DNA of 64,000 nucleotides from Macrostomum hystrix (Eukaryota > Animalia > Platyhelminthes), in assembly GCA_950097015.1 (NCBI GenBank), contig CATNEN010000038.1, positions 14,756,001 through 14,820,000 of the forward strand, written 5' to 3'. Each line of letters opens with the position of its first letter. The first letter of the stretch is position 1. A program made the position numbers and the translations under genes. Shown here piece by piece: positions 23,101-48,179 of the stretch. The notes beneath the pieces are model-generated. The model saw nothing but the letters and a program-made list of their open reading frames with translations. It searched no databases and was not told where the DNA came from.

Positions 23101-26100
23101 AAACCTGTTAGACGGTATCTAACCTGTTAGACAGTATCTAACCTGTTAGACAGCTTATGAAACCTGTTTGAGAGAATCTAACCTGTTAGACAGTATCAAT
23201 ACCTGTTAGGCAGTTGCTTGTTAGATGGTTAACTTGACTTCCAAAAGCAAAAGTTGAAAATCTGCACATGAGTAGTCTACTTAAAGCCTCTCGAATTCCC
23301 GATCATTTGAGGAGGAGCGCCAGCGTAGGAAGCGCGAAGAGGAGGCCAGGCGTCAGGAGGAGCGAGAGAAGAAGAAACGCGAGGCCGAGGAGCGGAACAA
23401 AAGCCAGCAGAGCCTACGCAACTTCACTATCAACAAGAAGTCCGGTAGCGAGGTGAAAATTTATCCCACATTTCAAAGTTTTTTTTTATTTTTAGCTCAG
23501 AAAATTATAATTCTTTTTTTTATTTCTAATTTTTATTGTCGATAACATTTAAGGCTTTTACAAAATTACAAAATGTGAACTTGAAAAGACGCGATTTCCG
23601 ACGTTTGGGATTTCTGGAAAGTTGGGATTCCTGGACTTTCAGGATTTCCGGACTTTTGGGATTCCTAGAAATTAGGGATTTCTGGAAATTAGGGATTTCT
23701 GGAAATTAGATTTTGCTATAAATTTTCAAATTACATCTCATTTAGGAAACTCGGAAACCGGGTGGCATAGTGGCAGAGCGGTTAACGCGTTTCCCTCTCA
23801 AGGTCCCCGAGCTCGATTCCGCGGTGAGGCCACATTTATTTGGGGCGCAGCCGCGGTCGAGAGAAGGCTTGGGGGGCTTGTCGTGCAATTTACACCTATG
23901 AGGGCAAACCTCCAAGGCACAGTGAGAATGTACACTGACTGACGATGAGAAAGTCAGGGCAGATGTACACACTTGTGTGAGTTGTGTGCCTGCGTACGGT
24001 ATCTGTGTGCGTGTGTGCTCAGGAGTCAGCGAACCGGGCAGAATTGCCTCTTCGCTGCAGCCGCAGTTCTACTGTCAGGAAGTTATTTATAACTCCTGGA
24101 GCGTGTGGGTGAGCGCTCTAAAGGGAGTAAGTCCGGGTCCAGAAGGACGGATCGGTCATGGAGAGTGCCCCGAGAGGGGTCCGGTCCTTTTAGTCGCGTC
24201 AGGGGCCGGGTCCAGGGGTCTGGGCTCGGGGTCGGTCCGGGGGACGGTCTCTTCTGGTCCCCACGGGAGCAGCGCAGCGCGCTTCCTTAAATAGTCCTGC
24301 AGAATGCCAACCTCGAGATTCATCAAACTAACCCACATCCTCGCCGGCCTGTCAACGAGGAATCGGAGCGGCGATGCGCCACCCCGATTGCCCAATGAAC
24401 CAGCGGCGAGGAACGACAGATGCTCCTCTAGGAGCAGCCGCAGGCAGTACTCGGCCAATAATTGCTACTCCGCCAGGACAATGGGAAGCGCAGGCGCCGA
24501 CCTGCCTACAGTGACAATACATGTATCTAAAGGGGAAAGGTCATATAGTCGAGCTGGGCTCGGATTACACTAAAGAAGTGGGGACAGGAAGAATTATTGA
24601 TCACTCATAATGCCCGAGTGATTTCTGATATCTGATCGCGGTTTGGAGGGGAATTATGACCTAAACTAGCTCATACAGTAAATTTATGGGCCCGCGATCG
24701 CAGTCATTCCTACATGGGTTAAGACAGATCCAGGGAGAGGGGATCGATGGCTACTTAATTCACCGCCGCCCCAAACCCGGCCCTAAAATTAATGACCTTG
24801 CTTTTGTGGCCAGCTGCTAGTTATTATTATTCATTACTTAAAATTTCGAAAAAATTTGGCTGGCTCACACCCTGACTCGATTCTCGTAGTACACTCGACA
24901 TCAGATTTATGCATAAATCTGAGCTATCCGGGAATTAGTATTACGTGATTGGTTAGTTGACCTAGCCAATTCAAACAAATTAGAACAAGTTTAAAAAAAA
25001 TTCAATATTAAAAGAGAAACTCAAGCAAAAGCAAGCTTTTATTTGGTGCTTTGTTTTGATAAATGTATATGAAAACAAAAATATAATATTATTAAAATAT
25101 AAGAATTTGTGATTTTTGCTGCACCTCTTTTGTTTTCCGGTTTCACATTTTGAATATTTGCAAAAAGCGGTGACAACACGTTCTTTTCTCTCTTTCTAAC
25201 ATTCAATTTTAGACTGATCAAGGTCAACATGTGAGTACAAATTGATGATCTTATAATTTCACTGAATTATAAAATGCGTATCATACTACTCGCAATTCTT
25301 ATTTGAAGTAAGTAGTTTCTATCGTGCACGCGTCGCTTGAAAAAAATATATATAGCTTTGTCTGCTTTATGAAGAAATTTTTGCAAACGAAAGTTTTTTA
25401 AATAAGCATCAGGCAATAAGATATGAACCGAATGATTTCCAGTCGAAGAGTGCATTCGAACAAACTTTTACCTTGCTTATTAGCTTCGTCTCAGTTGCTT
25501 TCCAAATGTTATAAAGTAGCATGCCGAACTGGCTTTTAAAGTGTACTTTAGAGCTTGAATAAAATAATAATCTTTAGGTGGGGACACCGCCCATCAGTAC
25601 CCATCATGAACACGTTATTAAACTCTCTACATATAGAAAAGCCATCATAATACCCTGCATAGTACATCTTGTCTATTTCGATGGGAAATTAATATTACCC
25701 TAGTTAGTCAATTATCCATTTAAATGGGAAATTAATCCCATAGTAAAAAATCACTTAATATAGGAAATCTATCCCCTGGTTTTTAACTAATAGATTCAGA
25801 TGGGAAATGAATCCCCTAGTTTGTAAATAATCCCATTGGATGGGAAATGAATCCCCTAATTTATAAATAATCCCTTCAGATGGGAAACTAATCCCCTAGT
25901 TTGTAAATAATCCGACTGGATGGGAAAGTAATCCACTAGTTTGTAAATAATCCCTTCAGATAGGAAATTAATCCCCTAGTTTGTAAATAATCCCATTAGA
26001 TAAAAAAGCTGTCTTCATTGAGTCAATTCAACAATCGCCAATCGATCGCAAATTCCCAAAACATTCGGAAACCTCCCACCAGACGGGACCGACTGGCGCA

Positions 26101-29100
26101 GACGAAGCCAAGGAGGGCAAGAGCAAGGAGCAGCTGGAGGCTGAGAAGAAGGCCGCGCTGGAGCAGCGGCTGCAGCCGCTCAGCATCGACGGCTTCGGCG
26201 AGTCGCAGCTGCAGGAGAAAGCTAAGGAGCTGTTTAACAAAATCTACTCGCTGGAGGGTGACAAATACGATCTGGAGCAGCGCTTCAAGGCCCAGAACAT
26301 GGAGGTGAATGCTCAAGATATTTGCTTCTAGTCTCCAGGCACAAGGAATTCTAAACTTAGCAACTTATAATCATGTTCAGTCAAATACGTTCTAGACATG
26401 ATACTCAAACGAGTAAATGATTTTTTGACATGGTATCTAAAATTCAAGGCTTAAAGTCAAGGAAGTCAAGGACTTCAAAAACGTTTAACCAAACTATCCG
26501 AGTGAGTCTAGGATTTCTAAAACATAGTATCTGAGTGAGTCTAGGATTTTTAAACATAGTATCTGAGTGAGTCTATAGGATCTCTAAACATAGTATCCGA
26601 GTGAGTCTAGGATTTCTAAAACATAGCATCCGAGTGAGTCTAGGATCTCTAAACATAGCATTCGAGTGAGTCTAGGATTTCTAAAACATAGCATCCGAGT
26701 GAGTCTAGGATCTATAAACATAGTATCTGAGTGAGTCTAGGATTTCTAAACATAGCATCCGAGTGAGTCTAGGATTTCTAAACATAGCATTCGAGTGAGT
26801 CTAGGATCTCTAAACATAGCATTCGAGTGAGTCTAGGATTTCTAAAACATAGCATCCGAGTGAGTCTAGGATCTATAAACATAGCATTCGAGTGAGTCTA
26901 GGATCTCTAAACATAGCATTCGAGTGAGTCTAGGATCTCTAAACATAGCATCCGAGTGAGTCTAGGATCTCTAAACATAGCATTCGAGTGAGTCTAGGAT
27001 TTCTAAAACATAGCATCCGAGTGAGTCTAGGATTTCTAAACATAGTATCTGAGTGAGTCTAGGATCTCTAAACATAGCATTCGAGTGAGTCTAGGATCTC
27101 TAAACATAGCATTCGAGTGAGTCTAGGATTTCTAAAACATAGTATCTGAGTGAGTCTAGCATCTCTAAACATAGCATTCGAGTGAGTCTAGGATTTCTAA
27201 AACATAGTATCTGAGTGAGTCTAGGATCTCTAAACATAGCATTCGAGTGAGTCTAGGATCTCTAAACATAGCATTCGAGTGAGTCAAGGATTTCTAAAAA
27301 ATAGCATCTGAGTGAGTCTAGGATTTCTAAACACACCAAGTTGAAATAAATGATCCACTTTCTTTCAGATGGTTGAACTCTCAGAGCGCGCCAGACAGAA
27401 TCAGAAGGGGTAAATAAAATAACATATTTTAGTGGCGATATTTAAATTCAATTGAGGAATTATATCCCTCGTCGCTTCCACACCTTTTTAGCGGTCAAAA
27501 GGGCAGCACAAACAAAGTTCAGACCGCGCCGTAAGCTTATAAATTGAGAAATTGATTCTGCTTTTTAAAAAAAGCTTTCTTTGTAAAATGTTCATTCATT
27601 TTAACAAAACGATGATTCATTGTTTACTATGGTAACTTCTTTTTCCAGGGACCCGTTGGCCGAGAAATTAAGCGGAATTCCAGTAAGCTAAAACAAATAT
27701 TTAAAGCTAAGAACTTGCTAACACAGAACAATCAGACTTTTAATTGATGCATGGTCCATGTTTTAGAATAGCTTATTTATAGCATACAAATCCTATTCTA
27801 TAATCAATTAAATGTGTACTTTAGAATATGTACAATCCTCTAATCATAATCTGTACAGTTCTTACTGAAGAATGTGTACAATACTCTCTTCAGAATATGT
27901 ACAATCCTCACTTTAGAATATGTACAATCCGTACTTCAGAATGTGTACAATCCGTACTTTAGAATGTGTACAATCCTCACTTTAGAATGTGTACAATCCT
28001 CACTTTAGAATGTGTACAATCCGTACTTTAGAATGTGTACAATCCGTACTTTAGAATGTGTACAATCCGTACTTCAGAATGTGTACAATCCGTACTTTAG
28101 AATGTGTACAATCCTCACTTTAGAATGTGTACAATCCTCACTTTAGAATGTGTACAATCCGTACTTTAGAATGTGTACAATCCTCACTTTAGAATGTGTA
28201 CAATCCGTACTTTAGAATGTGTACAATCCGTACTTTAGAATGTGTACAATCCTCACTTTAGAATGTGTACAATCCGTACTTTAGAATGTGTACAATCCTC
28301 ACTTTAGAATGTGTACAATCCTCACTTTAGAATGTGTACAATCCGTACTTTAGAATGTGTACAATCCTCACTTTAGAATGTGTACAATCCTCACTTTAGA
28401 ATGTGTACAATCCGTACTTTAGAATATGTACAATCCGTACTTTAGAATATGTACAATCCGTACTTTAGAATATGTACAATCCGTACTTTAGAATATGTAC
28501 AATCCGTACTTTAGAATGTGTACAATCCGTACTTTAGAATGTGTACAATCCGTACTTTAGAATGTGTACAATCCTCACTTTAGAATGTGTACAATCCTCA
28601 CTTTAGAATGTGTACAATCCTCACTTTAGAATGTGTACAATCCGTACTTTAGAATGTGTACAATCCGTACTTTAGAATATGTACAATCCGTACTTTAGAA
28701 TATGTACAATCCGTACTTTAGAATGTGTACAATCCGTACTTTAGAATGTGTACAATCCGTACTTCAGAATGTGTACAATCCGTACTTTAGAATGTGTACA
28801 ATCCGTACTTCAGAATGTGTACAATCCGTACTTTAGAATGTGTACAATCCGTACTTTAGAATATGTACAATCCGTACTTTAGAATGTGTACAATCCTCAC
28901 TTTAGAATGTGTACTATCCTTTCTTTAGATTCTGTACAAGATTCTCTTTAGACTCTGAACAAGACTCTTTAGAATGTGTACAATCCTTTCTCTAAATTGT
29001 AAAATGTAGATTGTGTACAATGCCATATTCTGCACCGTGTACTTCCAGCCCAAGATCATCATGTACAGCCAGTACGAGCGAGTGAAGGATCGCAGAGATT

Positions 29101-31051: not shown

Positions 31052-33210
31052 CTAAACCAGTGCAGCCAATTGTTGCACGGTGACATTGCGACCGCCGCAA
31101 ACAACGACAACAATGTCTCCAGATTGCACACTCTCGGGCAGGCGTCGCTCGTAGATGACGGACAGAGCGGCCCCGCAGGCAAGCTCGCTAAGCATGTGGT
31201 GCTCTTCTAGGAAACGCATCGATGCCCTGGCGGCCTCGGCGTCGGTGCAGACAACGCAGGAGGCGGCGTCGTTTCTAAGAAACTCCTGAACAGCCAGCCA
31301 GGCGGCGGAGCAGATCTGCGAAGCTCCCAGGCTGGTGGCTTTGGAGGTGATGCCAGGCAGGGTGACAGGACGGCCGGCTGTCACAGCGGCCGACAGGCAG
31401 TCGGCACCGACGGTCTCGGCCGCAACTAGCATTGTGGAAGACAGGCCGTGCCTGCGAAGACCTTCGGCGATGCCGCTGAGTAAGCCGCCGCCGCCGACGG
31501 CGACAATAATAGCGGCAGGAGGAGACGGCAGCGTTCCGGAGCTGCTGGCGCCCTGAGGAATGTTGAAGGCGTGTGTCTGAAAGACTGACGACAGGAGAGC
31601 CTGAAGGATTGAGGACAGGAAAGCCTGAAGGATTGAAGACAGGAGAGCCTGAAGGATTGAGGACAGGAGAGCCTGAAGGATTGAGGACAGGAGAGCCTGA
31701 AGGATTGAGGACAGGAGAGCCTGAAGGATTGAGGACAGGAGAGTCTGAAGGATTGAGGACAGGAGAGCCTGAAGGATTGAGGACAGGAGGGCCTAAAGGA
31801 TTGAGGATAGGAGAGCCGGAAAAACAGGAAGGCTTGAAGTTGAAGGATAAAAGGCAGGGGTCCTGAAATGTAAAATACAAGCCTGAAGGATGAAATACAG
31901 AAGCCTGATGGATGAACTACAGAAGCCTGATGGATGAAATACAGAAGCCTGATGGATGAACTACAGAAGCCTGATGGATGAACTAAAGAAGCCTGAAGGA
32001 TGAACTACAGAAGCCTGAAGGATGAACTACAGAAGCCTGATGGATGAACTACAGAAGCCTGATGGATGAACTACAGAAGCCTGATGGATGAACTACAGAA
32101 GCCTGAATGGTCAAAGACCATCTCAAATAAACCTAGAATGGCACGACAACAAAAGCAGCCTCAGTCACTCCGCACTCACCGGCAGAATCTCGTCGACAAG
32201 CGAGCTGTTACCCAGCCAGACATCCGGGTGATCGTACGGGTGCACCAGCAGGCTATTGGCATCGGATTCAACCAGAGATTCAGCCTTCGAATGGGCGTCT
32301 CGCCACACGGAGCCGTGTACGAGCACCTCGGCGCCTTCGGCTGCGATGCGTCGACGCATGGACTCCGGGGTGCTGCTGGGCACCACCACAGTGCAGGGCA
32401 GGCCCAGGTGAGAGGCCGCGTAGGCGGCTGCTAAGCCCGCATTGCCGCCGCTGCTGCTCACTACCTGGATGAGTAGGTGGAGGGGTTTGAGCAGCGGTGA
32501 GACTTGGCTGCATTCACTGTTGGCTAATTGGTTACCAAATTTGGCTAATTGGTTGTCTCATAGACTAATTGGTTGCCTATAATAAACTAAATGGTTATCT
32601 AAAAGACTAATTGGTTGTTTAATATACTAATTGGTTGTCTAATTGACTAATTACTTGTTGAACATACTAATTGGTTGTCTAATTGATTAATTAGTTGTTT
32701 AATATACCAATTAGTTGTCTAAATGACTAATTGGTTGTCAAATAGACCAATTGGTGTGCTAATAGACTAAATGGTTGGCGAATAGACTAATTCGTTGGCT
32801 AATTGACTAATTGGTTGGCTAAAATAGACTAATGACTTATCTAGTATACTAATATTAGCATATAATACTAATATGCTAATATGCAAGACAACTAATGGCC
32901 AATTTGTTGACTAAGTTGGCTAAATAGATGCCTATAAGAAAAATAAGTTTTCTAATAGACTAATCGGTTGCCTAATAGACAAATCAGTTGGGTAATTGAC
33001 ATCAAGGCAGCCGCCTACCCGCCCGCAGCCTCGCTCAGCAATGGCCCTCTGCACCATGCAGCCGATGCCGCGAATCTTAAACGACCCAGTCGGCTGACAA
33101 TTCTCCAGTTTGAGCCAGACACGACAGCCGGGCCTGCCCAGAGCATCTGTCAGCGAGCGGCTCTCAATCAGCGGACTGCAAATGTGCAACGGCGCCTGAT
33201 TGGACGGCAT
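31052..33210 (-). CDS. SDS: L-serine/threonine dehydratase (SDS/SDSL family); exons 33210-33019, 32464-32180, 31552-31052
   Basis: PLP-lysine motif KLENCQPTGSFKIRG, SSGGNAG, VGGGGLL, ELACGAAL and VVVCGG. Phase-0 GT-AG introns. Confidence 0.92.
31590..32105. repeat. 24-bp (gacaggagagcctgaaggattgag) then 22-bp (agaagcctgatggatgaactac) minisatellites, SDS intron
   Basis: Tandem copies of two related units. Confidence 0.9.
32520..32990. repeat. Degenerate ~20-bp repeat (gactaattggttgtctaatt), SDS intron
   Basis: Tandem degenerate copies. Confidence 0.8.
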
Positions 33211-33354
33211 TTCCGAATCCAACTTGGCTGCGAATGAAGGGATTCGAATTAAAGGCTTGATTTATATTTTAGGACAGTTAAATAATGTTAATGGGATTAC
33301 AAACCTTCAAATGATTTTTGTATTTTAGGGAAAATTCTGCATCCAAATCTTGAT

Positions 33355-34310: not shown

Positions 34311-34323
34311 CCATTAGTAGCTT

Positions 34324-34472
34324 CTTTCCACTACATACGTAATATTGTAAGGCCCGTGTATTGTACCACAGCAGCCAACTGGCCTATGAAAATGATGTAG
34401 ATTTTTATAATTGAACCTGGCACCCAAACTGACAACTCGTCTGTCAAATATTGCAATTCTCATCCGAGCTCA
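34324..34472 (-). ncRNA. Candidate structured ncRNA, diverged copy C of the double-hairpin family
   Basis: Homologous to 38670-38827, with compensatory stem changes. Confidence 0.4.
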
Positions 34473-34699
34473 ACTGGGTTCTAGTTGATTATCGATTGAC
34501 ATTTAAATTATATATCCTATTGGTTTTTAGGGGTTTGACGATCCGAAATTAGGAATCACAGTGTGGTTTGACCTTTAAACAAATAATTGGGGATCAGGGA
34601 GCATGGCGATTCTAAACTGAGATAAGGAAGTGTGACAACCTGTAATTAGTAAGGATCAGGGAGTGTTGCAAAATATACTTTAAATGACATCAATAAGTA

Positions 34700-35590
34700 T
34701 GGCGATCCCAATTTGAGGATCTGCAAGGATGGAGGTCACTTTTTGAGGATTTGGGGATCTTGTGATCCGAATTTGAAGATCTGAGAATCTTGGCATCCAA
34801 AATGGAGGACTTGGGAATATTGGGATCAAAACTTGAGGTCCTGAGAATATTGGGATCAAAATTAGAGGTCCTGAGAATATTGGGATCCCAACTTGAGGTC
34901 CTGAGAATATTGGGATCCCAACTCGAGGTCCTGAGAATATTGGGATCCCAACTTGAGGTCCTGAGAATATAGGGATCCCAACTTGAGGTCCTGAGAATGT
35001 TGGGATCCCAACTTGAGGTCCTGAGAATGTTGGGATCCCACTTTAAGGGCCTGGGAATATTGGGATCCAAATTTGAGGTCCTGAGAATGTTGGGATCCCA
35101 ACTTGAGGTCCTGAGAATGTTGGGATCCCAACTTGAGGTCCTGAGAATGGTGGGATCCCAACTTGAGGTCCTGAGAATGGTGGGATCCCAACTTGAGGTC
35201 CTGAGAATGTTGGGATCCCAACTTGAGGTCCTGAGAATGTTGGGATCCCAACTTGAGGTCCTGAGAATGTTGGGATCCCAACTTGAGGTCCTGAGAATGT
35301 TGGGATCCCAACTTGAGGTCCTGAGAATGGTGGGATCCCAACTTGAGGTCCTGAGAATGGTGGGATCCCAACTTGAGGTCCTGAGAATGTTGGGATCCCA
35401 ACTTGAGGTCCTGAGAATGGTGGGATCCCACTTTAAGGGCCTGGGAATATTGGGATCCCAACTTCAGGTCCTGAGAATCTTGGGATCCCAACTTGAGGTT
35501 GAGAGAATATAGCAGTGATCCCAAATGGAGGATCGCAGAATCTTGTCATGCCAACTGAAGTCTCTGGGAATCTTGGGATCTCAACTTGAG
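34700..35590. repeat. 30-bp minisatellite (tgggatcccaacttgaggtcctgagaatgt)
   Basis: Tandem copies; source of the spurious repetitive ORFs. Confidence 0.95.
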
Positions 35591-36091
35591 GATCTAGGTG
35601 TGCGTTGAACGTAAATTTAAGCATGCCAGTGCCTGGTTAGGGTTAAGTGGTTTAAGTAGTTAGGGTATGAATAATTTAACAAAGGCAAGCAAGACGAAAC
35701 AGGTGATAATTTACCGATGAAATTTATTTAAGCCGACTGACAGCTGATAAATTCACTTATTTATTGCTTTTTTGAGTAAGCACTATTAATTATTTCGATT
35801 ATTAGAAAAATAAAGCAATTAAAAAGTTAGGACCGACAATAGAAAGCTGATTGACATGGGTTGAAATGCATTGCCTACTGACTACTGCTACTGTAGATTA
35901 ACCGATTGAGCGGATAAAAAGCACTGAATTAAAAAGCGAAAATTGTTTCATGTCTTCCGTACTTTTACACAATTTTCATTTTATAATTAAACAAAAATAC
36001 GAAAATAAAGCACAGAGAGCATTCTAATTAATTACAAGTTATATATAAAATTAAGTCAGACAAAATTAATTATAAGACACATAAGATTATT

Positions 36092-36565
36092 GACCTGTTC
36101 TAGTCTAGATATTCAGCTAGTGAGTTTACCTGTTCTAGTCTAGATATTCAGCTAGTGAGTTTACCTTTTCTAGTCTAGATATTCAGCTAGTGAGTTTACA
36201 TGTTCTAGTCTAGATATTCAACTAGTGAGTTTACCTGTTCTAGTCTAGATATTCAGCTAGTGAGTTTACATGTTCTAGTCTAGATATTCAACTAGTGAGT
36301 TTACATGTTCTAGTCTAGATATTCAACTAGTGAGTTTACATGTTCTAGTCTAGATATTCAACTAGTGAGTTTACCTGTTCTAGTCTAGATATTCAGCTAG
36401 TGAGTTTACCTGTTCTAGTCTAGATATTCAACTAGTGAGTTTACCTGTTCTAGTCTAGATATTCAGCTAGTGAGTTTACCTGTTCTAGTCTAGATATTCA
36501 GCTAGTGAGTTTACCTGTTCTAGTCTAGATATTTATCTAGTGAGTTTACCTGTTCTAGTCTATAT
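36092..36565. repeat. 35-bp minisatellite (acctgttctagtctagatattcagctagtgagttt)
   Basis: Tandem copies. Confidence 0.95.
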
Positions 36566-37074
36566 ATCGATACAGTATACAGTCAACACCTTTGCTTTGG
36601 CCATGTAAAAAGCATGCATATCTTAGAAATTAGAGTTGTATATAGCTAGCAATTTAAATATAACGTGCAACACAAGCTGTTAGGCATGCTTAAGTTACAA
36701 ATCATGTTTTCTTGTATGGCATGTGCATTCACAACGACCAATGATTATAGAAAGGCTTTTCAATTAGCCGACCTAAAAAAGATAATTAGTTACACAAAGA
36801 CTTGAATTGAGAATATGATTAAGCAAATTTGAATATATATGTTTGCTGCTAAAAAATTATATAAAATGCTTCACCTGAATGAACTAAACTAAAATTGGAA
36901 AGAGCAAAAAATATGAATTTTCGAAAGAGAAATTGGGAGTAGCATTTTTAGTCACAACAGAAAATTATTATGATTATAGAAGCAATATAAATAGTTGTTT
37001 ATAGTCGTTCACTGCCTCAAAAGACAGTTAAATTAGCAATAGCGAGCCAGCTGAATAATTGATGTGACGTCATC

Positions 37075-40000
37075 TTAAACAGCCAGGTCGCGTTTCAGTA
37101 GTTCGCTATCAGCTGGCAGGGCCGGGGTCAGGGCCACCTTTCTGAAGATGCTGCAAGTTTTAATGCCGGGGTCAGACTTAGAGTGGGGGGAGAAATAGAA
37201 TTGCTGAGAAATAGAACAGAGTGAGAAATAGAATGGAACGAAAAATAGAATGGATGAGAAATATAATGGGCGGGAAATGGAAAGAGGTGAGAAATATAAT
37301 GGGTCAGAAATAGAATGGGGTGAGAAATAGAATGGTTTGAGAAATAGAATGGGGTCAGAAATTGAATGGAGTGAGAAATAGAATGGGGTCAGAAATAAAA
37401 TATAGTGAGAAATAGAATGGAGTGAAAAATAGAATGGGGTTAGAAATAGAATGGGGTCAGAAATATAATTGGGTGATATTTAGAATGGGGTCAGAAATAG
37501 AATGGGTGATAAATAGAATCATGTGAGAAATAGAATAGATGAGAAAACGAAAAGAATGAGAATTGAATGCGTGAGAAATATTTTGTGATGAGAGATAGAC
37601 TGAGTGTAAAGTGGGTGAGATATCAGGATTTCAGGTGATTAAGATAGAGTTGTATGATGCGCTAGAGAAGTGGGTGATAATTGAAGAGAAGAACGGTGAG
37701 AATCATGCAGATGAATGAGAAATGATCTGGTATTGGCAAGAATCAACTCTATCACTCACGCATTGGAGTACTTTAGAAAGGTGGTACTCTGCTGCCGCTG
37801 GCCAATGGGAGCCAGCTGCTTAGCCGATATGGCATTAATCTGGCGCGCAATCGGCATTAATTGAGCCTCTGTCCAGGCTGTGCTGTAGCTCAGGTGCTCA
37901 GGCCAGGTGGGCTCCATGCCTAGCTGAGCTCTGGCTAACCAAAGCGAGGCGGCGGCTTTCGCACTCTCGCGCTCCATGTTGAGTTGATGATCTAGCAGGG
38001 TGAGCTCCAGTAGGTACCTGCCAGGTTTCAAACAGTTACTCAATCAGATGATAAATATAATAATTGATTACACCTGCCCCTATTGGATCAGATATGCAGC
38101 CGATAGCACAGCCGCAGCTATTGCGCGACGCATCTGAAAGCTGCGTACGGCTGTTCAGTCCATGGACTGGGGGGACGCCACACCCACCCTCAATTACCCC
38201 CAGCTAATGCTGATACCCAATTAACAGCTGGGTGAACTGAAGCAATGTCGTGTTAAGTGTCGTGTTAAAGGACAAATTTTTTTTCCAGTGGAGTCCGGAG
38301 TCGAACCCCCGACATTCAAGTCTTTCTGTTCAGTCCATAGAATGGCGGAATGCTGATTTAGGCGTCTTGCTAAAAGACACAAATTAAAGTCGGGAATCGA
38401 AGCCCCGACCTTCAAGTCATGAGTTCGGCGCTCCAACGACTAGGCTACAAGGCTCCAATTAAACGTGGGAATGGGATTTAAATTCTTAAGGCGCTATTCA
38501 GCCTGCGGCTCAGGTCCATGTAGATCAGCTTCACAGTCTAATGAATGAAGTCCCTAATAAATATTGCGGTCCTGAATAAAATAAGATAAAATCTGATTCA
38601 AACTGTTTTATTATGACATCATCCGGGGCCGGCTTAAATCAATACTATAATTATACTGTATTATCAAACTTATGTCCACTGCGTGACTAATAGACCAGAG
38701 TACTGAGTAGCATAGCAACCAGCTGGCCTACGATAATCGCAGAATTGACTCAATCTGGCACCCAAACTGCCAACTCAGATCAGACATTTTTGCTAATTAC
38801 TGTCATAATCCGAGCTCAACTGGGTGCGAGATAGGCATCAAGAACACAATTACCCTAATTTGAGGGATTTAAGAGTCTAAATCCCATGTTTAGGGATCTG
38901 AGTGTGCGAATCTAATTTTTGGGATTTGAGAGTAGAATTCTTTTTTTTGGGATTTAAGAGACGACATCCAATCACAGGGGGCTGAGTTAGGGAGGGGATT
39001 TTATGGAGCTGGTTTAACAGTTTGAATTCTATTTCAGGGTCGAGCTGGGAGTAGAAATCCAACTTTACTCAATAGGGAGCACAAATAAAATTTTTGGGAT
39101 TTGGAAGTCCAATTCCCATTTTAGGAATTTCAGACGCCTGTAATTTTATTACAAGGACTCAAGGAGACCAAATCTCAAAATTGATTATAAAATTAATGTC
39201 CACTGCGTGACTAATAGACCAGAGTACTGAGTAGCATAGCAACCAGCTGGCCTACGATAATCGCAGAATTGACTCAATCTGACACCCAAACTGCCAACTC
39301 AGATCAGACATTTTTGCTAATTACTGTCATAATCCGAGCTCAACTGGGTGCCAAAATAGTTTTATTCCAAAAAAATTAAACAGAAACAACAATTGTTTTC
39401 AAATCAAAAGTCGAACCTAGCCAGGTAGGACATGGCGTGATTGTCGTGATCCACAACGCGCAGATAGCGACGCAGAAAATTATAGGACAGCGGCCAGTTG
39501 ATGCGAAAGTCGATAGCAGCCAGAATCTGCTGCTCCATGGCCATCACTTGACGATTCGAGTAGGCGTCTAGAGTGAGTAGGGTCTGCGGAATAGGAAATA
39601 GTTTATTCAATGTCTGCTGATGCTGCTTTCAATGTTTAAACGGCTGGGTGAACTACTCAATCAATGAGGAATTAATGGTTTCGCCTTTTGGCTGGGAACG
39701 AACTCGTGACCTCTCGATAGACTACAAGCTCGCTATATTAGAAATGATAATTGCAGTCAAAGCTCGAATTTTTCAAGCATAAATAAGTCACACACACAGG
39801 CACACACTCGCAAATGTGTATACACCTGCCCGGAATTTCTTCTTTGTCAGACAGGCAGTGTATACTCTTCGCGGAATCGAGCTCGGGGACCTTGGTGCGA
39901 AGTTCCATTTGCGAACATTGAGCAATGCACTAAATTCCTCATTGCTTCAGTTAACCCAGAGTGACGTCACACACCCAGTCCATGGACTGAACAGCTGGTG

Positions 40001-41843
40001 TACACAGTCTTTAGAAGCGATCTGCTTTGCCAAAAAATAGACTGAAAAAGGCACAAAACTCACCAACTGTTTCAGCTGCACAGCGAATAACTCCTCCTTC
40101 TTAGTAGCAATCCACAGGCAAGCGATAGTTAATAGCTGCAGATTCTGCTTAGAGATACTACTCGGCCTGCGGCTCAGGTACATGTAGATCAGCTTCACAG
40201 TCAGGTAGAGAGTCTCATAATTGAGCTCTAGACTTTCGTGAGCGTTAACTAGCCAGTCGAGCAGCACCAGGACCATGTCCCAGCGTAGAGCTGCTGACGA
40301 GGAGCTCTGAGTAGACATCAGCGGCTGCTGCTGTAGAAAATCAATCAGTGGCAGGTCCCGCCTGAAAAAAATATATTTGCTTCTTATTTACGTAATGCAC
40401 CTGTACAAGCACCCACCCCAGTTGATAACAACGTAGCTAAAGTACTTAGGCAAACAGTGAGAGTACAATAATAATAATAATAATAATAATATTAATTGCA
40501 GGAAACCTGCGGGCAATGGCACATCATTTGGTGACACTAGACCCGCAACCAGCGAGGAGGCAATTCTGCCCATTTCGCTGACTCCTGAGCACACACGCAC
40601 ACAGATACTGTACGCAGACACACGCTCACACAGGTGTACATCTGCCCTGACTTTCTCATCGTCAGGCAGTGTACACTCTCACTGTGCCTTAGAGGTTGGC
40701 CCTCAAGGGCGTAAATTGCACGACAAGCCTTCAAGCCTTCTGTCTGCGGCTGCGCCCCAAATGAATGTGGCCTCGCCGTGGAATCGAACTTAGGGACCGT
40801 GGTGCGAGAGGCAAACGCGTTAACCTCTCTGCCACCGACCCCGGGGAGCACAATAATAATAATAATAATAGCAGGAGGGCTGCGGGCAATGGTACATCAT
40901 TTGGTGACTCTATAGACCCGCAGCCAGCGAGGAGGCAATTCTGCCCATTTCGCTGAGTCCTGAGCACACACGCACATCTACCCGGAATTTTTATTATCGT
41001 CAGGCAGTGCACATTTCACTGTGCCTTTGAGGTTGGCGAGTCTCAGGGGCGTAAATTGTACGACTAGCCCCCAAGCCTTCTCTACGCGGCTGCGCCTAAA
41101 ATGAATGTGACCACGCTGCGGAATCGAGCTCAGTGACCTTTAAAGCATTGACCGTGAAACCCATGAATGAAGTCAAATGTAAACCTGTAGTCCTCCTCCA
41201 AGTCCTGATCGATAAAGAACGACTCCAGCACGTAGGGATAGTGATCCAGATACTGACAGCTGCCGGTTAGCACTGCCAGCACACTGTCTCGTCCAGCCAG
41301 TTCCTTATAGAGAACCAGTGGAAGCTCTTCCCGGCGAGGCGGCGGAGGTGCCGATGCCAGTTCCTGACTAGCTCCGCTGCCAAATAGGCCGCCAATACCC
41401 AAATTGCTCTCCTGGCTCAGTTTTAAACCGTCGCCGTTGGCTAGATCCCGAGGCTGACGACTGGCGCCGGTGCGACGCGATTTCTTAACAACGGCCTCTT
41501 TGCCATCGGCGATTGCCACAGAACGACGCTTGGAGCCGCGACGCTGCTGTTTCTGATTATTCGTGACATTGCTTAGGCTGTTCAGAGCTTTGCGACCGGC
41601 GGCGGCGGCATCGTCAACAGCGGCTGCTCTGGCGCCAGCCGGGTTGGTAATCTCTGATGACAGGCGACGCTTTTGAGCACGAGTGAGTACGCTGGCATTC
41701 TCTAGATTTGCTAGATCAATAGCAGCTTGCTGCTGCTGCTGTTGCTGCTGTTTTAAAGGCTTCACGCCTCTGATAAGGGCCTGCAGAAATCCGCCACGCT
41801 TACCATGATTGTTTGTGACAGCTGTGGTAGTGGCTGCGGCCAT
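37075..41843 (-). CDS. CCNB3: Cyclin B3-like (divergent); exons 41843-41185, 40361-40064, 39583-39417, 38017-37760, 37150-37075
   Basis: D-box RKALNSLSN; cyclin box LLDWLV..LNYETLYLTVKL..LQLL..K.EE; B3-type PLSYNFLRRY and LARYLLELTL. Junctions are in phase; the exon-1 donor (gtttac) was inferred from phase. Confidence 0.85.
37190..37600. repeat. Degenerate ~19-bp repeat (gagaaatagaatggggt), cyclin intron 4
   Basis: Tandem copies. Confidence 0.85.
38055..38455 (-). mobile_element. CORE-like SINE family 1 with duplicated tRNA head
   Basis: Reverse complement of 288-592, with two B-box-containing head segments (~38295-38320 and ~38388-38455). Confidence 0.8.
38670..38827 (-). ncRNA. Candidate intronic H/ACA-like double-hairpin RNA, copy A
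   Basis: Two long hairpins on the host-gene strand, followed by ACA; near-identical copy at 39194-39352. Confidence 0.5.
39194..39352 (-). ncRNA. Candidate intronic H/ACA-like double-hairpin RNA, copy B
   Basis: Differs from copy A by a G-C to G-U change in the basal stem; flanks are unrelated to those of copy A. Confidence 0.5.
39790..40020. mobile_element. Degraded fragments of SINE families 2 (-) and 1 (+) in cyclin intron 2
   Basis: ggaatcgagctcggggaccttggtgcga (family 2) and ccagtccatggactgaacag (family 1). Confidence 0.6.
40470..40845 (-). mobile_element. Full-length SINE family 2
   Basis: tRNA-like head ggtcggtggcagagaggttaacgcg...agttcgattcc, shared body and (TTA)n tail. Confidence 0.88.
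40852..41140 (-). mobile_element. Second, 5'-truncated SINE family 2 copy in tandem
   Basis: Same body and tail as 40470-40845. Confidence 0.85.
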
Positions 41844-44904: not shown

Positions 44905-45212
44905 AGATAGAGCGTCGGACTCACGACTTGAAGGTCGAGGGTTCGATTCCCGACTCCACTGGAACAATTTGTGTCATTTAGCAAGAAACTTCACTTTGCA
45001 TTGCTACAGTTCACCCAGCTGTTAAATGGGTACCAGTATCAGCTGGGATAACTGAAGGTGGGTGTGGCGTCCCCCCAGTCCATGGACTGAACAGACTTAC
45101 ACAGTCTTCAGATGCGCCACGCAATCTGAAGATGAGCCGCATAGCTGCGGCTGTGCAGTGGGCTGCACATCTGGCCAAATTGGGGCTGGTGTAATCTGCA
45201 ATTATTATTATC
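44905..45212 (+). mobile_element. CORE-like SINE family 1, 5'-eroded
   Basis: High identity to 310-592. Confidence 0.85.
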
Positions 45213-46456: not shown

Positions 46457-47420
46457 TCACCTCAAGGCCTGGGGATACACCACATTCTTCGTTCTTCCCC
46501 TTGGTGCGAAAATGAATAGGCCAGCTGGAGTTCCAACACGGGAGCAGGCGACATAAAGCTGCCCATGCGAGAAGCAAGGAGTCTCCAGGTTGATGCCAGC
46601 TACCTTCAGCGACTGTCCCTGAGCCTTGTTAATAGTCATCGCAAAGCACACTCTCACAGGGAACTGCAGTCGCTTGAACTGAAATGGCAGGTCCGTGGGG
46701 ATAATTGGAATCCGGGGAACGAACACAGACTCTCCTCTGCCAGATCCAGTCATTATCGTGGCCTCAATCACGTGTGGGAAGAGCCGCCTGACTATCAGTC
46801 TGGTGCCGTTACACAGCCTTGGCGCATTCAGGTTGCGGAGGAGCATAATTGGTGCCCCAACTTTCAGCTGCAAGTTGTGCGATGGAGTTCCAGGAGGATC
46901 TAGAGAGTTCAGAAACTCAACAGGATACTCCACAGCGGTGTCATCAGTCAACGTTGTATCAATTGACTTGTAGGTGAAAACTGCACCTGGCAACTCCTGA
47001 AGCAGTTGGTAGTTAATTTCGTTGGCGGCATCATTTCTAGGACACAGAATTGCCCTCTCTGACAGCCAGTCAACGTCAGCATATCGAACCATCAGGTTCG
47101 GGTAAACTTTTGCCTTGAGCTCCTGCACTGACTGCACAATGGTTCCGATTGTAGCGATCGATGACTGCCCATCCTCGGTGCTAATCTCCAGCAGACCATT
47201 GCCGATTCGCAATAGATTGGCAGAGAACTCATGAGCTGTTTAGTCTCCTTGAATTGTAGCTCTCATGTTTGTTCGTAGGTGCAACTTCACAACCGATGGC
47301 CACAGGTGAGATGATTTTAGGCAAGCATTAATCTCATCAGCAGGAGTGCCACGCGGAATCACAGGCAGCGTCTGTCTAAAGTCTCCAGACAGCAGCAGAG
47401 TGACACCACCCATCAGTTGA
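46457..47420 (-). pseudogene. Helitron PIF1-family helicase C-terminal half, disrupted
   Basis: GDFRQTLPV, LCNGTR, FAMTINKAQGQSL and HGQLYVACSR. In-frame stop at 47240-47242; Rep and N-terminal parts absent. Confidence 0.9.
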
Positions 47421-48179
47421 TCGCCAGCCTCTCTCTTTCTTCTATCCCAGGCTGGCTGGAGAGAAATATCGCCCTGCGCACTGGGACGCCACCGCACTCA
47501 CCGCACTCAGTCTCAGTGCTGCTTGGGGGCCAGTAGACAGTCTAGGGGTTTGGGCTGTGTACATTCACGGCTTGAAATACAATGTACAGTCTGGGGCTTC
47601 GGCGCCCGGGGAAGGGAGGGGGTGGCTGTAATAAAATTTGGCCCGCAGAGTGGCGGAGGGGAGTTGGGGGTGGCTGTCCTCGGAAAACAAAAAGTGACTC
47701 ACTTTGAGATGATGCAGCTTTGCTCTGGATTGAGTAGAGATGTTCAAAATTGACAGCATTGTTGTAAAACATGTAAAGTGTAAGTGGATCAAATTTGGAG
47801 AAAATCTGACAAAGTGGGGCGACGATATGTCGAATTGAGTGATTTTTTGACGATTTTTGAGCAGTTTTTTGCACTTTTGAGCAGGAAGGAAATGATTTTT
47901 CGGGAATTTGAGTAGCCTATTGCACTCAGCGTAGGTGGTTTTAGGTATGTGCAAAGTTTGGTGCGATTTGGTTGAGCGGTTTCGGCGTCTATAAAGACAA
48001 AAGGTTGCACACACACAGACAGACACACACACACACAGACAGAGTTTTCACTTTTATATATATAGATTTAACTGGCCTAATTAAGCCAGACATGTACCGA
48101 TAAATACTAAATAATCCGTGGACGTAATTTAGTGCACTGGTGTCCAACTAATTTTCTTCAAACCATTTCTTCCTCCTGA

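What the first reader, a model, noticed from the sequence alone, without database searches (positions are those of the whole stretch)
34324..39352. Three-copy double-hairpin ncRNA candidate (H/ACA snoRNA-like) with compensatory changes
Seen: a ~157-nt unit duplicated almost exactly in cyclin B3 intron 3 (38670-38827, 39194-39352) with unrelated flanks, plus a diverged copy at 34324-34472. On the minus (host) strand, hairpin 1 is GCACCCA/UGGGUGC, an internal loop, AGCUCGGAUUA/UGAUCUGAGUU and GACA/UGUC. Hairpin 2 is CUGCG/CGCAG and UAGGCCAG/CUGGUCUA, followed 15 nt later by ACA. Many G-U pairs form only on this strand. The single A/B difference is G-C to G-U. Copy C has CUACA/UGUAG (two compensatory pairs) and AGGCC/GGCCU, while loops diverge. 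The hairpin-1 loop strands AGUUGA and GGCAG are complementary to the recalled 18S rRNA segment CUGCC(C/U)UAUCAACU. Caveats: the H box is imperfect (AGAUUG), copy C ends AAA, and the target fit is one nucleotide off ideal. Inference: an unannotated, locally duplicating structured RNA family, either H/ACA-like or a miRNA pair.
Basis: partly seen in the sequence, partly recalled or inferred. Interest (0 to 1): 0.8.

Follow-up and report, generated by a model that had tools for sequence, protein, structure and literature searches.

The report
Duplicated flatworm ribosomal-RNA guide RNA
Two near-identical copies of a 158-base double-hairpin sequence sit in one intron of a flatworm cyclin gene, with a likely decaying third copy nearby; it is likely an ordinary, unlisted small nucleolar guide RNA, predicted to mark a ribosomal RNA uridine that frogs are known to modify with a different guide.

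Summary
The three copies are real (A/B differ at 1 of 156 nt; C about 71% alike). A and B lie in sense in one spliced intron of a B-type cyclin gene of a Macrostomum-like flatworm and fold only on that strand (z -3.6 and -3.0). They have box H/ACA anatomy: two pocketed hairpins, AGA 16 nt and ACA 15 nt below the pocket tops. A second lineage keeps unit B while its flank diverges. Pocket 1 makes 11 Watson-Crick pairs round one 18S uridine, with one mismatch next to it (22 of 600 shuffled pockets score as well). That uridine is human U359: unmodified in human and yeast, but pseudouridine 324 in two Xenopus species, set by a SNORA58-like guide; this unit gives no SNORA58 match. Covariation is not significant with three rows. 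Copy C fails box H and its second hairpin does not fold, so it is probably decaying, though its pocket fits a natural 18S variant. A microRNA reading of hairpin 1 is weaker but not excluded. Expression as a discrete RNA and the host's own 18S letters are unknown. Verdict: new member of a known class, modest interest.

The parts
38670..38827 (-). Copy A, predicted box H/ACA RNA (5' end may reach 38835)
   Evidence: fold z -3.57 on minus strand
39194..39351 (-). Copy B, predicted box H/ACA RNA (5' end may reach 39359)
   Evidence: covered by one 162-nt contig of run X3 at 39198-39359 and by a flank-diverged contig of run X1
34322..34479 (-). Copy C, diverged paralog, likely decaying: pocket 1 kept, box H and hairpin 2 damaged
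38758..38827 (-). A hairpin 1 (lower stem, pocket 1, upper stem)
   Evidence: z -5.12, 0 of 500 shuffles
38816..38821 (-). A pocket 1, 5' strand AGUUGA (B 39340-39345, C 34470-34475)
   Evidence: six Watson-Crick pairs with 18S 3' of the target
38767..38772 (-). A pocket 1, 3' strand UGGCAG (B 39291-39296; C 34429-34434 reads UGUCAG)
   Evidence: five pairs, first base mismatched
38751..38756 (-). A box H variant AGAUUG, 16 nt below pocket top (B 39275-39280; C 34413-34418 reads AGGUUC)
38679..38742 (-). A hairpin 2 with a 7x7 pocket, no target found (B 39203-39266)
38673..38675 (-). A box ACA, 3 nt after hairpin 2 (B 39197-39199; C AAA 34325-34327)
38018..39416 (-). Host intron (GT-AG) of the B-type cyclin gene holding A and B
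   Evidence: joint in contigs of X2 and X3; Pfam cyclin domains in flanking exons; exon order

Best explanation
Copies A and B are intronic, sense-strand double hairpins with box H/ACA geometry that likely encode one small nucleolar RNA, predicted to guide conversion of the 18S rRNA uridine equivalent to human U359 into pseudouridine. Shown: the duplication, host intron and strand, fold, box positions, complementarity to eukaryotic 18S, constraint on the unit relative to its flank. Inferred: release from the spliced cyclin intron by trimming (two copies in one intron would need a cut between them or would leave a two-ended longer RNA); binding of dyskerin/Cbf5, Nop10, Nhp2 and Gar1 at each hairpin; opening of the A-U pair at the pocket top so that AGUUGA and GGCAG clamp the rRNA on both sides of the unpaired U-A; modification of that U. 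Pocket 2 is likely an orphan. A and B are a local duplication kept alike by selection and probably gene conversion; C is an older duplicate that kept pocket 1 long after the rest drifted and is now likely weak or dead.
For: Strand-specific fold. AGA one base after the lower stem and 16 nt below pocket 1; ACA 15 nt below pocket 2 and 3 nt after hairpin 2; the rule is 15 +/- 1 (PMC8522698 passage). ACA in a given 3-nt window occurs at 0.041 in local non-coding DNA. The sixth A of box H is variable and position 2 is G in about 80% (PMC5824354 passage; PMC7075261 passage). A/B identity ends one base after ACA. A versus C: 30 of 31 columns identical round pocket 1 against 67 of 114 ungapped columns elsewhere, Fisher p 2e-5 (region chosen after seeing the alignment). 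Run X1 contig: 20 listed substitutions in 118 nt of flank, at most 6 in 131 nt of unit B, worst-case p 0.002 (one contig, depth 4.6). Pocket 1 ranks the 18S site first in 7 of 8 rDNA units; 22 of 600 shuffled pockets score as high on one unit's 1799 uridines. The site is pseudouridine 324 in X. tropicalis and X. laevis (PMC6984369 supplement), so it is modifiable in vivo. Only three copies in 64 kb.
Against: The base pair just 5' of the target U is a mismatch (U.C or U.U), and pairs next to the target are described as critical (PMC6800473 passages); predicted guides often do not modify endogenous rRNA (PMC8522698 passages). Box H is off consensus, and if the RNA keeps 4 or more extra 5' bases the AGA is predicted to be base-paired (unpaired probability under 0.3 in A and B). 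Target P is only about 0.04 and the pocket strands were picked knowing the proposed target. No significant covariation. Pocket 2 has no consistent target. No Rfam H/ACA match. The host's own 18S sequence was not obtained; 10 of 100 tallied 18S loci read CUGAC, which adds a mismatch for A/B.
Confidence: 0.62

Rival explanations
1. It is a box H/ACA RNA, but pocket 1 does not modify the 18S site: it is an orphan, or it works on another RNA such as the look-alike 28S segment or a spliceosomal RNA.
For: Mismatch next to the target U. A look-alike 28S segment pairs with 6 bases of the 3' strand and 5 of 6 of the 5' strand if one more target base is left unpaired. A 24-nt block in the 5' arm of hairpin 2 is kept between A and C (20 of 24) and is unexplained. 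snRNAs were not available to scan.
Against: The 18S site gives 11 Watson-Crick pairs in standard U-N geometry and ranks first; the 28S fit needs extra distortion and a second mismatch; the 18S uridine is modifiable in Xenopus. The hairpin-2 block pairs with rRNA no better than shuffles (12-14 nt runs; 19 of 40 shuffles reach 12).
Confidence: 0.2
2. Hairpin 1 is an intronic microRNA precursor (5p starting near UUGAGC), and the rest of the unit is duplicated context.
For: The lower stem extends over the supposed box H: 6 of 7 further pairs in B (random flank 0.018), 5 of 7 in A (0.11), giving a stem of about 33-35 bp. 16 of the first 22 bases pair in A, 15 in C. The first 12 bases of the candidate 5p are identical in C. 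Only Rfam hit over the unit is mir-750, 17.8 bits, E 0.18.
Against: mir-750 score is far below its 60-bit threshold, and the part matching its 3p seed region is not identical to the consensus and differs between A and C. The extension is not kept in C (3 of 7, 0.53). The unpaired loop strand and both lower-stem arms are the best kept part, as in a guide pocket. Hairpin 2 is 40-42 nt, too short for Dicer (size limit from my knowledge), yet is kept to the ACA. Does not explain ACA position or the 18S fit.
Confidence: 0.11
3. The unit is a DNA-level element: a small transposon fragment or a duplicated enhancer whose conserved blocks are protein-binding sites, and the fold is incidental.
For: The conserved blocks share a CAGTT/CAGCT core; the genome is rich in local repeats; covariation is not significant.
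Against: Three copies, one strand, no terminal repeats or target-site duplication seen in the sequence. In runs X2 and X3 (293 and 400 contigs laid in all) the tables show one contig each on the unit at depth 2.6-3, against summed depth in the thousands on the SINE-like pieces of the same intron. Folding is strand-specific; changes G-C to G-U (A/B) and G-U to G-C (C) keep pairs.
Confidence: 0.07

Closest known systems
Intron-encoded box H/ACA snoRNAs (dyskerin/Cbf5 pseudouridylation guides)
   Same: Hairpin-hinge-hairpin-tail, ANA and ACA boxes at 15 +/- 1 nt, bipartite pocket, sense intronic position, local cis-duplication (PMC2653536 passages), one guiding and one orphan pocket (common: PMC5824354 passages).
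   Different: Box H lacks its sixth A; 158 nt or more; two copies in the same intron; host is a cyclin gene; no Rfam family matches.
Xenopus pug18S-324 (SNORA58-like), guide for 18S pseudouridine 324 = human U359 (PMC6984369)
   Same: Same predicted target uridine; also found as extra duplicated copies (two in X. tropicalis).
   Different: No match to the SNORA58 model at E up to 10; host there is UBAP2L. I did not see its sequence or the pairing figure, so independence is inferred, not shown.
mir-750 precursor family (Rfam RF03330)
   Same: Weak shape and sequence likeness of hairpin 1 (17.8 bits).
   Different: Threshold 60 bits; seed-side letters differ from the consensus and between copies; large internal loop.
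sno-lncRNAs (two snoRNAs in one intron capping a longer RNA; PMC4696412 passage)
   Same: Two snoRNA-like units in one intron, 366 nt apart.
   Different: No evidence for a joined RNA; the spacer is diverged in run X1.

Membership tests
Box H/ACA snoRNA (copies A, B) | Hairpin-hinge-hairpin-tail fold with internal-loop pockets | tested here: met
   MFE fold, z -3.57 and -3.04, minus strand only
Box H/ACA snoRNA (copies A, B) | Box H (ANANNA) in the hinge | tested here: inconclusive
   AGAUUG: first and third A present, sixth is G; sixth A described as variable; may be paired by the 5' flank
Box H/ACA snoRNA (copies A, B) | ACA box after hairpin 2 | tested here: met
   ACA 3 nt after the stem; A/B identity ends one base later. 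The true 3' end was not measured.
Box H/ACA snoRNA (copies A, B) | 15 +/- 1 nt from pocket top to box | tested here: met
   16 nt for pocket 1, 15 nt for pocket 2 (read from the sequence)
Box H/ACA snoRNA (copies A, B) | Bipartite pairing round an unpaired U-N of a target RNA | tested here: inconclusive
   11 Watson-Crick pairs, one mismatch next to the U; 22 of 600 shuffles; host rRNA not available
Box H/ACA snoRNA (copies A, B) | Sense position in a spliced intron | tested here: met
   GT-AG joint 38015-39415 in X2 and X3
Box H/ACA snoRNA (copies A, B) | Stable RNA bound by dyskerin; target pseudouridylated | not testable with these tools
   Only contigs were available, which cannot show ends, strand or level
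Box H/ACA snoRNA (copy C) | Box H 15 +/- 1 nt below pocket 1 | tested here: not met
   AGGUUC at that place; nearest ANANNA 10 nt further on
Box H/ACA snoRNA (copy C) | Second hairpin and ACA ruler | tested here: not met
   Hairpin 2 z +0.76; forced fold 3.8 kcal/mol worse, AAA 22 nt below the upper stem
SNORA58 family | Match to the family covariance model | tested here: not met
   No hit at E up to 10 in 5301 or 251 bases
mir-750 | Family score and conserved 3p seed | tested here: not met
   17.8 bits against 60; seed-side letters differ
microRNA precursor in general | About 22-nt duplex reads with 2-nt overhangs | not testable with these tools
   No raw small-RNA reads offered
MITE or SINE | Many dispersed copies, terminal repeats or tRNA head, target-site duplication | tested here: not met
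   3 copies in 64 kb, same strand; one listed contig per run on the unit; whole genome not held

The most novel reading that the evidence does not exclude
A flatworm has independently evolved a guide for the same 18S uridine that only Xenopus modifies among nine vertebrates and yeast, and its paralogs have split by rRNA variant: A/B read the CUGCC form and C, by one pocket change, reads the CUGAC form, so that co-existing rDNA types would each have their own guide; the two copies in one intron may also cap a roughly 680-nt H/ACA-ended long RNA.
Probability: 0.07. Interest if true: 0.65.

Novelty: new member of a known kind. Interest (0 to 1): 0.3.

Why it matters
Searches of the paper library found no description of Macrostomum snoRNA guides, so this is a usable first entry with a precise, cheap test: one 18S uridine. 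If the target is right, the position has been picked up at least twice in animals by apparently different guides, which supports the view that rRNA pseudouridine maps turn over by lineage. It does not change any mechanism.

Tried and rejected
No RNA holder was listed on record: no evidence either way. The spacer 38887-39075 had no cover in the three runs and neither X2 nor X3 covered 38887-39197: not used. The X3 contig's ends (39198, 39359) fall close to the predicted RNA ends, but it is one contig at depth 3, and the X2 contig runs 59 nt past A's stem into the intron; a weak hint only. A gapped pocket-1 pattern found 0 matches in the metagenome collection. The host's own 18S letters could not be obtained. 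Rfam: no hit at gathering level on the unit. Model R1 had hairpin 2 misregistered by four columns and was discarded; R2 finds only its three training copies, next hit E 0.32. Four registers of pocket 2 gave no site shared by the 8 rDNA units. The equivalent uridine is not among Arabidopsis Psi-seq sites and apparently not among Drosophila ones (first listed rows with that context are 325 and 326; 2 of 7 places seen, file cut). Paper searches for 18S + U359 + pseudouridine and for snoRNA + pseudouridylation + Platyhelminthes + 18S returned 0. Considered from my own knowledge and dropped on sequence: telomerase RNA (no full template upstream), scaRNA (no UGAG in apical loops), Sm-class RNA (Sm-like run not kept in C). 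The bacterial promoter scan is not meaningful here. One search's stem-extension rows were off by one base and were redone; one search's script stopped part-way and was finished.
Full report
Observation. BLAST of copy A against the window returns B (164 of 168 identical with flanks; 1 difference in the 156-nt core) and C (89 of 126 columns, E 4e-8); the next hit is a 26-nt match at E 0.011. A covariance model built from the three copies finds only those three, next hit E 0.32. The A/B difference turns the closing G-C of hairpin 1 into G-U. Flanks of A, B and C do not align better than shuffled sequence (96-285 of 300 shuffles score as high), apart from about 10 similar bases on each side seen in the alignment. 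On the minus strand A folds at -56.4 kcal/mol, z -3.57, B z -3.04; on the plus strand z is about -0.5. C folds no better than chance as a whole (z -0.32); only its hairpin 1 does (z -2.9, 6 of 500).

Setting. The flanking exons carry Pfam cyclin N and C domains. The nearest protein is a Macrostomum lignano hypothetical protein, 79% identical over 61% of the query; it maps to five minus-strand exons and its best solved relatives are cyclin B1, so 'B-type cyclin' is shown and 'B3' is not. Contigs of runs X2 and X3 join 38015 to 39415 with CT..AC ends, a GT-AG intron on the minus strand that holds A and B in sense. C lies about 2.6 kb beyond the last coding exon and 1.1 kb before the start codon of a PALP-family gene; a splice-acceptor-like site 17 nt before that start codon suggests C could sit in an upstream intron or outron, which is inference.

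Constraint. [quoted passage not shown] A contig of run X1 (coded organism A) covers 39076-39324 with 26 substitutions; the 20 that were listed all lie in the flank (39110-39183), so at most 6 fall in 131 nt of unit B (worst case p 0.002). It is one contig at depth 4.6 and 43 table rows were not shown. Covariation proper is not shown: 2 of 36 pairs change on both sides, 49 of 500 shuffles reach that.

Anatomy. In A and B, AGAUUG begins one base after the lower stem and 16 nt below the top of pocket 1; ACA lies 3 nt after hairpin 2 and 15 nt below its pocket. The described spacing is 15 +/- 1 (PMC8522698, passages; about 14 in PMC5778458, passages). The sixth A of box H is variable, with G at position 2 in nearly 80% (PMC5824354, passages), and the box sits one or two bases from the stem (PMC7075261, passages). 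By chance an ACA falls in a 3-nt window at 0.041 and an ANA at 0.25 in local non-coding DNA. C has AGGUUC, AAA, and 22 nt from upper stem to AAA: it fails two features and is not filed as a working member. Against the H/ACA reading, the 5' flank can pair with the AGA: 5 of 7 further pairs in A (random 0.11), 6 of 7 in B (0.018), 3 of 7 in C (0.53), and with 4 or more extra 5' bases the box is predicted paired.

Target. I fetched 111 eukaryotic 18S loci with a motif outside the target. Of these 2 were too short and 9 lacked the segment by my pattern; of the other 100, 57 read CUGCC(C/U)UAUCAACU, 22 have G for the first C, 10 read CUGAC. Scanning every U of 8 rDNA units, pocket 1 of A/B ranked this site first in 7; the exception is a CUGAC-type unit, where C's pocket ranked it first, as it did in no other unit. 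The duplex is six pairs 3' of an unpaired U-A and five pairs 5' of it, with one mismatch adjacent to the U. On one unit's mature rRNAs (1799 uridines) 22 of 600 shuffled pockets scored as high over three registers. Pairs next to the target matter and extra unpaired bases can abolish activity (PMC6800473, passages), so the fit is good but not ideal. The supplement of PMC6984369 (part 1 of 12 read, plus searches; sections 7 and 10 read; figures not seen) shows this uridine is human U359, marked U in human, mouse, chicken, axolotl, newt, lizard, zebrafish and yeast, and pseudouridine 324 in X. tropicalis and X. laevis, assigned to a SNORA58-like guide. The unit has no SNORA58 match at E up to 10. 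The site is not listed in Arabidopsis Psi-seq (PMC6793436, passages and supplement searches) and apparently not in Drosophila (PMC9997552, passages and a partial supplement search). A look-alike 28S segment fits less well. Pocket 2 has no consistent target. All of this uses other eukaryotes' rRNA; the host's own 18S letters remain unknown, and this leaves open whether A/B or C fits best.

MicroRNA rival. With the extension, hairpin 1 has a stem of about 33-35 bp; 16 of 22 candidate 5p bases pair in A, and the first 12 are the same in C. The only Rfam hit is mir-750 at 17.8 bits against a threshold of 60; the family is reported lost in parasitic flatworms, not in all (PMC3840308, passages; PMC6468455, passages). 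The seed-side 3p letters differ from the model and between A and C, the best-kept bases include the unpaired loop strand, and hairpin 2 is only 40-42 nt. I give this 0.11.

Expression. No holder is on record as RNA. X2 and X3 contain spliced cyclin contigs and one low-depth contig each on the unit (38712-38886; 39198-39359). Contigs cannot show ends or strand, so a discrete RNA is not shown.

Mechanism and comparison. It most likely works as, and on present tests belongs to, the intronic box H/ACA class: trimmed out of the intron, loaded with dyskerin and partners, pocket 1 positioning one 18S uridine (steps inferred from class knowledge; PMC10557570, passages). Cis-duplication with kept guide regions is a described pattern (PMC2653536, passages). 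Two snoRNAs in one intron can yield a longer two-ended RNA (PMC4696412, passage); nothing here shows that. Paper searches pairing Macrostomum with snoRNA or non-coding RNA annotation listed no description of this RNA (listings only), and the library lacks most subscription papers; bioRxiv supplements and genome annotation files were not seen.

Verdict. Real; likely a new member of a known class (about 0.8 for H/ACA, about 0.6 with this target). Interest 0.3: ordinary in kind, with one testable twist, the apparent convergence on the Xenopus-specific site and a paralog whose single pocket change matches a natural 18S variant.

Noticed in passing
window 38060-38460, 288-584, 44910-45205: A tRNA-derived SINE-like element in three places; the copy at 288-357 scores as tRNA in Rfam (31.8 bits) but ARAGORN finds none; hundreds of divergent contigs pile on it in runs X2 and X3.
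   Followed up: partly
window 37087-37158 (-): A further cyclin exon beyond the apparent in-frame stop at 37756; a GTGAGT donor sits at 37759, so the gene ends further on than the ORF suggests.
   Followed up: partly
window 38711-38734 and 34360-34383 (approx., -): A 24-nt block in the 5' arm of hairpin 2 is kept between A and C (20 of 24) though its partner strand is not; it holds a 12-nt self-complementary stretch that could form a 4-bp stem with an AGYU loop. Unexplained.
   Followed up: partly
window 41130-41843 (-): First cyclin exon runs into an in-frame stop shortly after the region matching P0001 (match ends 41148) and is only 60% identical with gaps; exon end not worked out.
   Followed up: no
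window 46457-47497 (-): Pif1-type helicase fragments in two frames, Helitron-like.
   Followed up: no
window 31052-33261 (-): Three-exon PALP-family (serine dehydratase-like) gene on the same strand 4 kb downstream of the cyclin, with an acceptor-like site 17 nt before its start codon; possible trans-splice or operon arrangement.
   Followed up: no
window 25987-26331 (+): Troponin exon (Pfam PF00992).
   Followed up: no
whole window: Very dense minisatellite arrays (periods 8-40 nt), several inside introns; C is wedged between a 33-nt and a 30-nt array.
   Followed up: no
L001-L009: Nine bacterial genome assemblies in the species collection carry eukaryotic 18S or whole rDNA contigs, apparently contamination.
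   Followed up: no
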